Shown: in pieces, positions 2,929 to 51,099 of the stretch
Position numbering within the stretch: position 1 is the first letter of the stretch
How the letters are laid out: the number at the start of each line of letters is the position of its first letter
Source of the DNA: Eledone cirrhosa
Taxonomy: Eukaryota
DNA: 64,000 nucleotides
Assembly: GCA_964016885.1 (NCBI GenBank)
Contig: OZ024753.1
Coordinates: forward strand, 22,506,001 to 22,570,000
Reading direction: 5' to 3'
Made by a program: the position numbers and the translations under genes
The notes under the pieces: generated by a model
The model's database searches: none
Seen by the model: only the letters and a program-made list of their open reading frames with translations
Told to the model about the DNA's origin: nothing

Positions 2929-3306
2929 TTTCGTTTCTGAATTTGTTTAGCAAGATTCTTTATCTGAAAACGTGTGTTGAAACCGATATTGTTATGCTTT
3001 GGGATGGTCATGTTGCCAATAAGAAACATACGCACCAGTTGCTTTCACTTCAATTTATTATAAAATAAATTTATAAATTTAGGAATTTATAAATTTCCGG
3101 CTGGTTGGTTAGTTCCACAACAAGAATCCCCAGTCACTGAAGAGGTCACAGAATGTGTGACGAGAGAACTTTGACAATATATGAACAATCGTCTGGTTGT
3201 GGAACCAACCAACCAACCGGAATTTTATAAATTTTATTTATAATAAATTGAAGTGAAACAACTGGTGCGTGTGTTTCTTATTGGCAACATGACCCCCCCA
3301 AAGCAT
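2929..3306. mobile_element. Penelope-like 3'-end insert with inverted arms in (TA)n
   Basis: Arm 2993-3123 is the reverse complement of 3196-3306. A degenerate hammerhead (GTCA-CTGAAGA-GGTCACA/TGTGAC-GAGA...TGAC) lies at 3133-3175 between the arms. Both flanks are (TA)n. Confidence 0.65.
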
Positions 3307-3333
3307 ATATATATATATATATATATATATATA

Positions 3334-3940
3334 TAAGTCGTTTGGAAGCCTCGACAATGCAAATGGGTAAATCTCCGGGTAACAAGGTCCGGTGGTGGAG
3401 AGAGAGATGTAAGTGGGTGTACGTTGAGATGCGTGGTGTGTATAAGATGTGTAGAATGAAGGGAAGAGTATAAAGGATAAAAATAAAAATAACAACACAA
3501 GAGAGAGTTACCTTGGGAGAGATTTAATAGTCCCTATATATTTCGGATTCACATCCATCAACTGGGGTTTTTTCCGGGGTGGGGGAAAAGGTTGTCTGTC
3601 GGACAAGTCCGGAACGCGTCTTTCGCTGTTTGTTGTTTTGAATATCTGCAGTTGATGGATGTGAATCCGAAATATATAGGGACTATTAAATCTCTCCCAA
3701 GGTAACTCTCTCTTGTGTTGTTATTTTTATTTTTATCCTTTATACTCTTCCCTTCATTCTACACATCTCACACATCTTATACACACCACGCATCTCAACG
3801 TACACCCACTTACATCTCTCTCTCCACCACCGGACCTTGTTACCCGGAGATTTACCCATTTGCATTGTCGAGGCTTCCAAACGACTTAAAGATATTTACT
3901 TATTGTTCCACAATGCTTCAAGCAAACTTCAATACACTCA
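3334..3940. mobile_element. Penelope-like 3'-end insert with inverted arms in (TA)n
   Basis: Arm 3334-3564 is the reverse complement of 3649-3888. Each arm begins in a hammerhead-like segment (GGA-TGTGAA-TCC-GAAA-TATA-TA-GGG). Both flanks are (TA)n. Confidence 0.65.
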
Positions 3941-4446
3941 TATATATATATATATATATATATATATACATACATACATGCATATATGATGGATGCCCCC
4001 TCGTTATCGAGTATGGCCATTGCACGATATACCATTATTAATAATTATTAATTAATTGTATCGTGCAATGCCTGTGCATGAAGATATTTTTTAAAGTGAG
4101 GCCAACCTGAGACTAAACAACAACAACAATAATAACCTGACTATGTGGAACAAGTAGCTGAGAGTAAAGTGTATCTGTGTGGGATGCACCCCTCGGGGAT
4201 GGGGAGAGCCGAGGATGACAATACTGGCACACTAATCAATCTTTCCAATACATCTTTGTTGCATAACACTTCTTTTATAGAGAGTAGAGAAACTTGTTAA
4301 AGTTGGACGCTAACCAAATTAAATGTTTTTGGAAGTTTATTGAATTTCCAGCGAGAAATACCGGAGGGACACCGAGGAAGCTCTGTAATATCTCTCAGTC
4401 GATTGACTTATTTAAGAATGGTTCCTAACATTAGCAATGTGTAATA

Positions 4447-5543
4447 GGGTGGGGGTGGTGGTGGTGATGGTGATGATGGTGGTGATGGTGATGGTGGTGG
4501 TGGTGGTGGTGGTGGTGACGATGGTGGTGGTGTGGTGGTGGTGGTGGTGGTTATGGTGGTGGTAGAGTTGATGGTGGTGGTGGTGAGGATGGTGGTGATG
4601 GTGGTGGTGGTGGTGGTGGTGATGGTGGTGGTGGTAATGATGGTCATGGTCGTGGTGGTGGTGAGGATGGTGGTGATGGTGGTGATGATGGTGGTGGTGG
4701 TGTTGGTGGTGATGGTGGTGGTAGAGTTGATGGTGGTGGTGATGGTGGTGGTGGTAGTGGTTGTGGTAGTGATGGTCGTGATAGTGGTGGTGGTGGTGGT
4801 GATGGTGGTGATGGTGATGGTGATGGTGGTGGTAATGATGGTGATGATGGTGGTGGTGGTGTTGGTGGTGATAGTGGTGGTGATGATGGTGGTGATGGTA
4901 GTGATGGTGGTGTTGGTGTTGGTGGTGGTGGTGGTGGTGATGGTGGTAATGGTAGTGGTGGTAGTGGTAGTGATGGTCGTGATGGTGGTGGTAGTGGTGG
5001 TGGTGGTAGTGATGGTCGTGATGGTCGTGGTGGTGATGGTGGTGGTGGTGGGGGGGATGGTGGTGGTGGTGGAGGTGGTAGAGTTGATGACGGTGGTGGT
5101 GGTGATGGTGGTGGTGGTAATGATGGTGGTGGTGGTAGTGGTTGTGGTAGTGATGGTCGTGATGGTGGTGGTGGTGATGGTGATGGTGGTGGTAATGATG
5201 GTGATGATTGTGGTGGTGGTGTTGGTGGTGATAGTGGTGGTAATGATGGTGGTGATGGTAGTGATGGTGGTGTTGGTGTTGGTGGTGGTGGTGGTGATGG
5301 TGGTAATGGTATTGGTGGTAGTGGTAGTGATGGTCGTGATGGTGGTGGTAGTGGTGGTGGTGGTAGTGATGGTCGTGATGGTGGTGGTGGTGATGGTGGT
5401 GGTGGTGGTGGTGATGGTGGTGATGGTGGTGGTGGTGGTGGTGGTGGTAATGATGGGGGTGGTTGTCGTGGTGTTGGTGGTGATGATGGTGAGGGTGGTG
5501 TAGGTGGGGTAGGTGATGGTGGCGGTGGCAGCGGTGGTGGCAT
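4447..5543 (+). repeat. Degenerate (GGT/GAT)n trinucleotide array
   Basis: Directly visible. It includes an internal duplication of about 360 bp. Confidence 0.95.
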
Positions 5544-48119: not shown

Positions 48120-48726
48120 ATATATATATATATATATATATATATATATATATATATATATATATATATATATATATATATATATATATATATATATATA
48201 TATATATATATATATATATATATATATATATATGTATATATATTTATATATATATATACATATATATATATATACTACCACCTCTGTTAGTCAACTAACA
48301 GATAACGAATGACAACCTCGGACAGAGATATGAACACTCCTCTCTAAATATCTATGTAAAAACTAATAATTTTTCCTCCGCATTTTATTATTATTCGTTT
48401 AGATATGTAATTTAACTGCACTTTGCACACCCGACGTTGAAAAAGCATATATTGCTGAAACCGGTACCACAATTAAATGCTTTGATATTATACTGAAAAA
48501 ATCCCTCCAGCATTTTCTACTGAATTCTTTTCCTTTTTACTATTTGTTTATATATATATATATATACGGTATAACAAATTATTGTTATAGGTAGTCCACT
48601 TAGATGTAGTGGAGGGTACTCCGAGTAGTGGATAGTACTAACGCTTGGCTAAGTTTGACTCAACAAGACTTTTCCATAGTGATGCTGCGAGTACGCGGTG
48701 ATTTCTATGTAATAATTGGAGTAATA

Positions 48727-48912
48727 ATTATTTCTACTTTAGGCACAAGGCCAGCAAATTACCCAGTGCATTACTGGTACTTTATTTTATCGACCCCGTA
48801 AGGATGAAAGGCAAAGTCAAGCTCGGAGGGATTTGAACAAAGATCGTAAAGGGACGTAACTATGCTAGAAAGCATGGCGTCCGACCCTCTACCGATACTG
48901 CCAATCCACCGT
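48727..48912 (-). mobile_element. Main-family SINE (duplicate at about 56449-56634)
   Basis: Reverse complement of the 46.2-kb copy, with A- and B-boxes and tail. Confidence 0.85.
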
Positions 48913-48920
48913 AATAATAC

Positions 48921-51099
48921 ATCAAGAAAGAAGAGTGACATGGTTTGCTATACAATAAGTGCTTTATTCACATGGCTGACAATTGTTTCTCTGAACTGGT
49001 AGGTCTAGAGATCGCTACCCGCCGGTTTTTGCGTCAATCGATCACCAATACTTCGTTATAACCAGTCTATACATCAGAGCATGCGAGAATGAAGGATATA
49101 CACAGGCATGGCTTCTATATATAGTAGTGGCATTAAATCAGAACAATAATAACAATACTCACATAAATTAGCTAGATAGTAAATAGTTAAAACAATCACA
49201 ACATCAATCTAAGTAAGAAATAGAGTATACTGATGACTTTAGCATGTGAAACGAACTGATACGAAACAGATGTATGAAATTGACATGTGAAAGATGTCAT
49301 GGGGTACATTATATATAGTGTAGAGATAACCTGGGGCTTGAAACAAGGGACCATTTACTTTACTGTAGGTTTGCTAACCGTAAGATTTATTTATTATCAG
49401 ACATATAAAATATTTTCATTGTAGTGAGGATGGTAATTTTTATGTGGTGTAAAGTGGATTCATTATTTAAGTGGTCTATATTATATGTAGGGATTGTTAG
49501 TTCGAATCATGGGGGTTGTTTAGCTTTGACAGCATCAATAACAAATCATGCATGAATAAGACAACAATAACAACAATAACAAGGTAATACAGAGGTTAAG
49601 AACGCAAGGTATATATAGAGAACATGATGAATTACGGATACATTGGGGTGTTCATTATAAGAACAGAAGGAAGGTGATATCTAAAGGACTGTGGTAGTAG
49701 TAAAATAATGTACTTAGAATTAAGTGTATCTGTTGAAAATCATGTGCTAATGTGAGGAGGTAGTGTTGACAGAAGCCGAGAAGAGATATATTTATGGGTT
49801 GATAAGATATATACAGGCATTACTGTGGTATAGAATTAAGGAAGCTAGAAGCTGTTTAAAGAATATTATAGTTCTGTGGTGGTCTGTGTGAGAGTGCGAT
49901 TTCATATGTTGAATGCTAAGTTATGTTGGTTCGAATCACGGTGGCTTAAATCTTGTGAATTTAGTAGCGATCCTGTGTCTGCAGAAAATTGACCTTTCTA
50001 TTTTGTTGTTGAGTAGCCTTTTATCGTTCCTAAGGATATACAGTAATTCAAGGTCGCAGAGCCTACAATAGGACATACCGGTACTATATGCCCTTGCGGT
50101 CGACAACCTCGACCAGTTGAGATTGTAGTCGATGTTATTGTCCTTAAGTTCCCAGATTTTTTGGCGAGTCTTGTAGAGCCTATTAGTGCACGGTTCTTCA
50201 TCGAATGTCTGTGCACATACCATCTTTTTTTAAACGTACGCGCGGTGGATCCAATGTAATGCCAGGTGGAGTTGCCCGAGTTCACCGTACACATATACAC
50301 TAGGCTGGTATCAAGGCACTACCACAGTCCTTTCAATATCACCTTCCTTCTGTTCTTATAATGTACACCCCAATGTATCCGTAATAGTATTCATCATGTT
50401 CTCTATATACCCTTGCGTTCTTAACCTCTGTATTACCTTGTTATTGTTGTTATTGTTGTCTTATTCATGCATGATTTGTTATTGATGCTGTGAAAGCTAA
50501 ACAACCCCATGATTCGAACTAACAATCCCTACATATAATATAGACCACTTAAATAATGAATCCACTTTACACCACATAAAAATTACCATCCTCACTACAA
50601 TGAAAATATTTTATATGTCTGATAATAAATAAATCTTACGGTTAGCAAACCTACAGTAAAGTAAATGGTCCCTTGTTTCAAGCCCCAGGTTATCGCTACA
50701 CTATATATAATGTACCCCATGACAGCTTTCACATGTCAATTTCATACATCTGTTTCGTATCAGTTCGTTTCACATGCTAAAGTCATCAGTATACTCTATT
50801 TCTTACTTAGATTGATGTTGTGATTGTTTTAACTATTTACTATCTAGCTAATTTATGTGAGTATTGTTATTATTGTTCTGATTTAATGCCACTACTATAT
50901 ATAGAAACCATGCATGTGTAAATCCTTCATTCTCGCATGCTCTGATGAATAGACTGGTTATAACAGAGTATTGGTGATCGATTGACGCAAAAACCGGCGG
51001 GTAGCGATCTCTAGACCTACCAGTTCAGAGAAACAATTGTCAGCAATGTGAATAAAGCACTTATTGTATAGCAAATCATGTCACTCTTCTTTCTTGATT
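48921..51099 (-). mobile_element. 5'-truncated Naiad-type Penelope-like element with a long inverted 3' arm (duplicate at about 56643-58821)
   Basis: Minus-strand GIY-YIG remnant at 49936-50320 (LVY..YIGSTARTFKKRW, CRLCDLE, LNNKIE..CRH). 48921-49696 is the reverse complement of 50321-51099. Confidence 0.88.
50938..51045 (+). ncRNA. Type I hammerhead motif with an 81-nt stem II region (inverted copy at 48971-49083; duplicates at about +7722)
   Basis: TGCT-CTGATGA-ATAGACTGGT...ACCAGTTCAGA-GAAA-CAATTG-TC-AGCA, followed by AATAAA. Confidence 0.72.

What the first reader, a model, noticed from the sequence alone, without database searches (positions are those of the whole stretch)
2929..51099. 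Recurrent two-3'-ended insertions in (TA)n: possible priming from both ends of a break in a self-complementary target
Seen: at least seven unrelated inserts (2929-3306, 3334-3940, 27216-28680, 33857-37496, 39616-40238, 47788-48119, 48921-51099) consist of a 5'-truncated body plus an inverted copy of the same terminus. Where orientation can be read from an ORF or hammerhead, both junctions are element 3' ends facing outward, mostly into (TA)n. The two arms usually stop at different points, often at a TA/TATA inside the element; for example, the left arm stops at the equivalent of 37408 while the right runs to 37496. Known: Penelope-like elements can have inverted pseudo-LTRs, and Naiad elements favour (AT)n. 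Inference: because (TA)n is its own reverse complement, both ends of a cut can anneal to internal UA patches of the RNA and prime reverse transcription independently. The two cDNAs would then join in the middle. Here this looks like a routine integration mode across several families.
Basis: partly seen in the sequence, partly recalled or inferred. Interest (0 to 1): 0.75.

Follow-up and report, generated by a model that had tools for sequence, protein, structure and literature searches.

The report
Two-ended Penelope insertions, paired start sites
These mirror-ended inserts are copies of Penelope-like jumping genes in a layout already described, but nearly every one pairs a short end with a long end at two fixed TA-containing points, which likely means both sides of the DNA cut start copying the element's RNA in one coordinated event.

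Summary
All seven inserts are real and belong to seven Penelope-like element (PLE) families: four Hydra-type, two other C-terminal GIY-YIG types and one non-autonomous. Inverted arms with a one-sided 'tail' are textbook PLE features. Arm ends are not scattered: each family has two fixed 3' ends, short (S) and long (L = S plus a 54-171 nt tail). Of 125 two-ended inserts from six families, 120 pair S with L, 1 is S+S, 0 are L+L, so the two ends are not primed independently. Both fixed ends are UA patches (263 of 294 scored junctions share 2 or more nt with (TA)n), usually 1-6 nt 5' of an RCTC...GAGY hairpin. The arms usually share source alleles and are often not nested, which argues against fold-back self-priming. 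A self-complementary target is not enough (0 of 30 RTE LINEs) and is not needed (published target duplications; one non-TA site here). Likely mechanism: staggered double cut, each end priming at one of two fixed RNA sites, cDNAs then joined head to head. This scan noted the same layout before on other DNA (12 findings, at least 6 genomes). Known layout; useful mechanistic constraint.

The parts
2930..3306 (.). Insert 1, family f1 (PLE, C-terminal GIY-YIG with a CX4CxxC linker, Neptune/Nematis-like; hammerhead core near 3139). Left inverted arm ends at L (58-nt tail), right arm at S; (TA)n both sides
3336..3941 (.). Insert 2, family f2 (PLE, C-terminal GIY-YIG in sister copies; 2402 exact genome hits of a 33-mer). 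Left arm ends in the S patch, right arm at L (about 54-nt tail); (TA)n both sides
27216..28680 (.). Insert 3, family f3 (Hydra-type PLE; ORF remnant 27506-28408 on +). Left arm ends at S into (GA)n(TA)n; right arm ends off-site at +37 of a 66-nt tail into (CA)n
33857..37496 (.). Insert 4, family f4 (Hydra-type PLE; RT 34214-35506 and frameshifted EN 35481-36269 on +; hammerhead core about 96 nt before S). Left arm S, right arm L (tail about 37410-37496); (TA)n both sides
39616..40241 (.). Insert 5, family f5 (non-autonomous, about 565-bp tandem unit, no ORF or canonical hammerhead found; shares the GCTC...GAGC hairpin after L with f4 and f7). Left arm S, right arm L (84-nt tail)
47789..48118 (.). 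Insert 6, family f6 (Hydra-type EN in longer copies; hammerhead core 106 nt before S). Left arm L (95-nt tail), right arm S; (TA)n both sides
48567..51099 (.). Insert 7, family f7 (Hydra-type PLE; EN remnant on - strand about 49900-50310). Left arm L (171-nt tail, split by a SINE), right arm S; (TA)n both sides
48720..48919 (-). SINE inserted later into the tail of insert 7, with an 8-bp duplication of the TA patch at S
56289..58821 (.). Second copy of insert 7 inside the 7.7-kb tandem duplication; not an independent insertion

Best explanation
These are insertions of endonuclease-bearing Penelope-like retrotransposons in which both junctions are element 3' ends at two fixed sites, one short and one long, likely because the element's protein cuts both target strands and each freed DNA end primes reverse transcription at a different fixed site of the element RNA. 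Shown here: the two fixed ends per family, their one-S-one-L pairing, a UA patch at each, an RCTC...GAGY hairpin just 3' of most Hydra-type sites, shared alleles between most arm pairs, and microhomology or filler at the inner junction. Shown in vitro for another PLE (PMC11167929): both strands are cut and extended, and RT starts at two internal sites that bound the tail. Inferred: (1) a staggered cut leaves roughly 10-14 nt 3' overhangs; (2) a two-subunit complex holds the RNA by the two hairpins, so one primer is placed at S and the other at L; (3) the last 2-5 primer bases pair with the UA patch and set the register; (4) usually one RNA or one source locus serves both primers, and the L-primed copy either stalls near S or displaces the S-primed copy; (5) the two cDNA 3' ends are joined head to head by end-joining repair. 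When only one end is primed, or one arm is lost, a plain 5'-truncated copy results.
For: 120 S+L, 1 S+S, 0 L+L and 4 off-site among 125 inserts; family 2 adds 4 S+L and no S+S or L+L among 27 distinct places. 263 of 294 scored junctions share 2 or more nt with (TA)n, and the modal overlaps at 11 sites sum to 37 against a null mean of 10.7, 0 of 200,000 draws. RCTC lies 1-6 nt 3' of 8 of 9 sites in f3-f7, 7 of them with a GAGY partner; chance per site 0.044. Arms of one insert share polymorphic alleles in 244 of 310 observations against 1486 of 5287 between inserts, while private changes are mostly unshared (144 of 638 shared), so this is not wholesale conversion. L partner arms stop at or before 25 nt past S in 17 of 53 cases against 3 of 30 equally short S partners (p=0.03; f4 8 of 13 against 0 of 9). 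54 of 96 simple inserts are not nested. TSD-like 13-14 bp repeats in 3 informative flanks. Strand-change joints and S ends into (TA)n occur in independent raw reads.
Against: In vitro, the anole PLE starts at RNA sites reported as not homologous to the cut DNA (PMC11167929), so the UA overlap may not be base pairing; a fixed cut phase plus a fixed start could mimic it. 31 of 294 junctions have 0-1 nt overlap and 74 more could not be scored. At non-CpG sites 7 of 33 informative inserts share no polymorphic allele between arms (5 in f1, 2 in f3), yet they are still S+L, which fits two RNAs or later conversion better than one RNA. The stall near S is absent in f1 (0 of 12) and weak overall. The hairpin motif is absent at both f1 sites and at f3 L, and the families that carry it are related, so they are not independent. 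Samples are the 30-40 best hits per family, which favours young copies. No empty sites were seen.
Confidence: 0.65

Rival explanations
1. Endonuclease resolution (the reading in PMC8557442): a DNA intermediate is trimmed by the element's own TA-preferring nuclease at two TA patches, which would explain fixed TA-containing ends without RNA-DNA pairing.
For: Both fixed ends are TA patches like the target. The published wording assigns the tail to EN-mediated resolution. The anole enzyme also cuts AT-rich DNA of its own ORF-pLTR junction.
Against: The two tail boundaries were later shown to be RT start sites in vitro. It does not by itself explain strict S+L pairing, L arms lying within the tail or barely past S (19 of 96) or hairpins at a fixed distance 3' of the ends.
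Confidence: 0.15
2. Fold-back self-priming (proposed in PMC3846280): one copy folds back on itself, or an antisense RNA self-primes, and the second arm is copied from the first.
For: Arms usually share source alleles. Short overlaps at the inner junction (41 of 61 filler-free junctions overlap by 2 or more nt by BLAST; null 0.18). 35 of 96 inserts are nested.
Against: A fold-back copy must be contained in its template. In 54 of 96 simple inserts the S arm reaches further 5' while only the L arm has the tail, and in 19 the L arm barely or never overlaps the S arm. 35 of 96 junctions carry filler.
Confidence: 0.08
3. One reading: because (TA)n is self-complementary, both cut ends anneal independently to any UA patch in the RNA.
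For: Both ends are 3' ends, both sit at UA patches, and 102 of 124 inserts have (TA)4 within 24 nt on both sides.
Against: Two fixed sites with strict S+L pairing. RTE control 0 of 30. One S+L insert in a non-TA site. Same layout in targets with 9-10 bp duplications in print.
Confidence: 0.07
4. Assembly artefact, or a DNA transposon with true terminal inverted repeats.
For: Palindromes beside microsatellites are error-prone; the window has a 99.9-100% identical 7.7-kb duplication and a perfect 208-bp palindrome.
Against: Arms differ by about 1-4% on average, ends are unequal, arm lengths vary from about 40 bp to over 3 kb, RT and GIY-YIG ORFs are present, and strand-change joints occur in independent Illumina reads. 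A real equal-ended TIR element at 51457-51686 looks different.
Confidence: 0.02

Closest known systems
Canonical EN+ PLE insertions with inverted pseudo-LTR and one-sided tail (Pen2a_Av, PMC3846280; Fig. 2 legend and text of PMC8557442)
   Same: 5'-truncated body plus adjacent inverted 5'-truncated copy; tail on one arm only; partial tandems; hammerhead in the terminal repeat.
   Different: Tails here are 54-171 nt rather than 30-40 nt; in four families the start codon lies 43-119 nt after L instead of inside the pLTR; the pairing rule is counted (120 of 125) rather than described as optional.
Hydra clade PLEs (PMC8557442, section on Hydra)
   Same: C-terminal GIY-YIG, RWK-like motif, DKT, CxCX5C linker, CxxC and CxH motifs, hammerhead, (TA)n target in f3, f4, f7 (f6: EN part only).
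   Different: RWK reads RWR in f3 and RWT in f4; f4 and f7 are longer than 3 kb; placement is by motifs, with no tree.
PAc (Poseidon of the green anole) in vitro system, PMC11167929
   Same: Both strands cut and extended, AT-rich target, two internal RT start sites that bound the tail, predicted dimer.
   Different: PAc starts in an AC-rich stem-loop reported as non-homologous to the target, with no strand difference in start site; here both sites are UA patches that overlap the target by 2-5 nt and are used one per end.
L1-type twin priming (recalled, not from a call; seen here in RTE LINEs)
   Same: Two primers from a double nick, cDNAs joined by microhomology.
   Different: Twin priming gives abutting, non-overlapping segments and only one true 3' end; here both arms start near the 3' terminus and overlap in sequence.

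Membership tests
EN+ Penelope-like elements | Single ORF with RT and GIY-YIG endonuclease | tested here: met
   RT (YRDD/YVDD) and GIY-YIG-type motifs read from translations of f1, f2, f3, f4, f7; EN only for f6. Pfam gave no hit for the f3 and f4 ORFs at E 0.01, so this rests on motifs. f5 has no ORF.
EN+ Penelope-like elements | Pseudo-LTRs from partial tandems; inverted 5'-truncated copy | tested here: met
   Read-through tandems in f1, f3, f4, f5, f7; inverted arms in all seven families.
EN+ Penelope-like elements | Optional tail on one end | tested here: met
   S/L ends with 54-171 nt tails; 120 of 125 inserts have it on exactly one arm.
EN+ Penelope-like elements | Hammerhead core in the terminal repeat | tested here: met
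   CTGANGA...GAAA 68-176 nt before S in f1, f3, f4, f6, f7 (f7 with an 81-nt spacer); variant core in f2; none in f5. Rfam found no hammerhead at E up to 1.
EN+ Penelope-like elements | Target-site duplication | tested here: inconclusive
   Hidden in pure (TA)n; 13-14 bp candidates in 3 interrupted or non-TA flanks; no empty sites.
Hydra clade | RWK-like and DKT motifs, CxCX5C linker, CxxC and CxH around the EN core, (TA)n target | tested here: met
   f3, f4, f7: RWR/RWT/RWK, DKT and CxCX5C, CxxC, CxH; f6 linker and CxxC only. Criteria from PMC8557442.
Hydra clade | Phylogenetic placement of RT | not tested
   No reference PLE set was fetched.
Naiad clade | N-terminal GIY-YIG, no canonical hammerhead | tested here: not met
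   EN is C-terminal and hammerhead cores are present in the families with ORFs; the mobilising partner of f5 is unknown.
Neptune or Nematis (f1, f2) | CX2-5CxxC or reduced linker before the EN | tested here: inconclusive
   f1 has CX4CxxC; f2 has a CX4C linker; the clade was not resolved.
TIR DNA transposon | Equal fixed terminal inverted repeats | tested here: not met
   Unequal ends, variable arm length, RT ORF.

The most novel reading that the evidence does not exclude
PLE integration is a telomerase-like, doubly primed reaction on one RNA: two small hairpins each present a UA alignment patch, one protein subunit places each end of the cut at its own patch, and the same RNA is copied twice with strand displacement. 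This would explain inverted pseudo-LTRs, the one-sided tail and (TA)n targeting in a single step, and it departs from the homology-free start reported in vitro.
Probability: 0.35. Interest if true: 0.75.

Novelty: new member of a known kind. Interest (0 to 1): 0.45.

Why it matters
How PLEs make their inverted repeats and one-sided tails is named as an open question in PMC8557442 and left open in PMC11167929. The counts here turn it into concrete tests: one end uses S and the other L, each site is a UA patch next to a small hairpin, and fold-back cannot give the non-nested majority. The elements themselves and their layout are of a known kind.

Tried and rejected
DNA searches for family 2 and for the Neptune-like element at 52770-55843 returned nothing because common words are skipped; family 2 was then sampled by pattern, and the second element stayed untested, so no PLE family with a non-palindromic target could be compared in this genome. 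The Rfam scan gave only microsatellite-driven miRNA-type hits below gathering score. Pfam found nothing for the f3 and f4 ORFs. The tandem units of f5 were too alike to tell which unit the single arm came from. No RNA holder was listed. Independent reads did not span the window's own junctions or empty sites. The supplement search of PMC11167929 gave no hits in 3 text files; its figures S1 and S2 could not be seen and may bear on start-site homology. The 24-nt inner overlap for insert 4 is a reference artefact and was ignored. Literature searches listed no paper, beyond the three read, whose title or abstract start deals with PLE end formation; none of the three states one-S-one-L priming, but most subscription papers are not searched.
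Full report
Observation. Masked self-comparison finds inverted arms at all seven places. Reading the ends outward shows element 3' termini on both sides. 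Insert 7 extends left to about 48567: a SINE at 48720-48919 splits its tail, so it has unequal ends in (TA)n like the others. Insert 3 is the exception, with (GA)n and (CA)n at its junctions. The stretch 48275-55843 is repeated at 55997-63567 at 99.9-100% identity, so insert 7 appears twice.

Identity. I sampled each family in the own genome (3.0 Gb) with a body query upstream of the short end: 40 listed hits each for f1, f3, f4, f5 and f7 and 42 for f6, of which 237 of 242 had DNA in hand, extended by 160 fetched stretches. A first query that included the f4 tail was not used for the pair counts. Family 2 was too common for a DNA search and was sampled by pattern: 2402 exact hits, first 30 as loci. 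[quoted passage not shown] Hammerhead cores lie 68-176 nt before the short end in five families.

Two fixed ends. In each family 3' ends fall at a short site S or a long site L, 54-171 nt apart. One search listed 128 two-ended rows after removing 4 segmental duplicates. I dropped 3 more: one double count of insert 7 and two L ends that are tandem read-throughs. One S+S row whose right end runs on into a deleted tail (f3 row 27) was reclassed as off-site. Of the remaining 125, 120 are S+L, 1 is S+S, 0 are L+L and 4 have an off-site end; p is about 1e-34 against free choice. Six of the 125 are the window's own inserts, 8 are incidental neighbours, and two f6 rows share an inner junction and may be one event. 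Family 2 adds 4 S+L, 1 off-site and 1 read-through among 27 distinct places within 1.5 kb. About 136 of 237 query arms lie in two-ended inserts; the rest look like plain truncated copies, a few with tail-only arms under 30 bp. 102 of 124 inserts have (TA)4 close on both sides.

UA patches and hairpins. Read-through copies give the element sequence beyond L for five families. Of 294 scored junctions, 263 share 2 or more bases with the (TA)n run; 74 junctions with mismatches were left unscored. The modal overlap is 2-5 nt at 11 of 11 sites, where a random point with random phase gives 2 or more in 0.22 of cases. Register slips land on neighbouring TA/AT steps. An RCTC motif starts 1-6 nt 3' of 8 of 9 sites in f3-f7, 7 with a GAGY partner 10-18 nt on (chance per site 0.044; related families, not independent); f1 lacks it. 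Folding supports these stems at f4 S, f4 L, f6 S and f7 L but gives other pairings at f3, f5 and f7 S. A fixed cut phase with fixed starts could mimic the overlap, so pairing is inferred.

One event, usually one source. Across 90 inserts the two arms share polymorphic alleles in 244 of 310 observations, against 1486 of 5287 between inserts; private changes are shared in only 144 of 638. Without CpG sites, 20 of 33 informative inserts mostly share (13 of 14 in f4, f5, f7), but 7 share none (5 in f1, 2 in f3). L partner arms stop in the tail or near S in 17 of 53 cases against 3 of 30 for equally short S arms (p=0.03; strong in f4, absent in f1). In f1 and f6 both arms often run to the same point (-235 to -250; -165 to -173), as if both reached the RNA 5' end. 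Inner junctions: 61 of 96 lack filler and 41 of these overlap by 2 or more nt by BLAST, about half by exact match, against 0.18 by chance.

Tests of rivals. Fold-back needs nested arms; 54 of 96 are not nested, 35 are, 7 are equal, and 19 L arms hardly overlap the S arm. Target self-complementarity: 0 of 30 RTE copies, about two-thirds of them next to TA runs by eye, have an inverted 3' end within 1.5 kb, against 107 of 237 PLE arms; 5 or 6 RTEs instead show abutting inversions of the L1 type. The RTE's TA may partly be its own tail. One f5 S+L insert sits in a non-TA site with a 13-bp duplication (one mismatch), and two interrupted TA sites give 13-14 bp candidates. Artefact: raw Illumina reads of another study show strand-change joints (f4: 37077/37426 and 37238/37466; several for f1) and S ends running into (TA)n; these are family-level, not the window's own junctions.

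Literature. PMC8557442 (passages; Hydra section whole) describes the inverted truncated copy and a 30-40 bp tail often on one end, ascribes the tail to endonuclease resolution and calls the mechanism open. PMC3846280 (parts 1-4 of 5, whole main text) shows the same layout with 9-10 bp target duplications and proposes self-priming. PMC11167929 (parts 1-2 of 4, results and discussion; supplementary figures not seen) shows both strands cut and extended, two internal start sites bounding the tail, a predicted dimer, and no homology at the start. Other papers were seen only as search listings. L1 twin priming, the telomerase alignment region and the YY1-like motif are recalled. Earlier notes of this scan report the same layout in at least 6 other genomes; they are unchecked and are not counted as support.

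Verdict. The feature is real and is the known PLE insertion layout in several new family members. The best reading is coordinated two-ended priming at two fixed RNA sites (0.65); the one-RNA, base-paired, hairpin-guided version is plausible but unproven (0.35). Interest 0.45.

Noticed in passing
window 48275-55843 and 55997-63567: 7.7-kb tandem duplication at 99.9-100% identity that differs mainly in microsatellite lengths; recent duplication or assembly duplicate.
   Followed up: no
window 51457-51686 (and 59185-59414): 230-bp element with equal 37-bp terminal inverted repeats between TA runs; looks like a true TIR MITE, unlike the PLE inserts.
   Followed up: partly
window 37625-39607: RTE-type LINE with an internal inversion of the L1 twin-priming type and a perfect 208-bp palindrome (37625-37832) centred on a TA array; the same inversion point recurs in other copies (L403, L408, L419, L429).
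   Followed up: partly
window 52770-55843 (- strand): Near full-length PLE with RT and GIY-YIG hits and a CX4CxxC linker (Neptune-like), no inverted arm seen; genome search returned nothing.
   Followed up: partly
family f1 copies: 5' stops of both arms pile up at -235 to -250, just at a CAAGATGGCG motif (recalled as YY1-like), possibly the transcription start of the terminal repeat.
   Followed up: partly
family f6 copies: Some arms stop at -106 to -111, the start of the hammerhead core.
   Followed up: no
families f4, f5, f7 just after L: Identical spacing GCTC-N10-GAGC in three families, including non-coding f5, which suggests that f5 is mobilised by a Hydra-type protein.
   Followed up: partly
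window 40269-40394 and 33234-33829 / 40352-41028: Another repeat with a short palindromic end and a partial tandem copy beside TA arrays; family not identified.
   Followed up: no
window 9960-15358 and 16013-19663: Two long LINE-like ORF sets, one on each strand, the second carrying a frameshift; not part of this finding.
   Followed up: no
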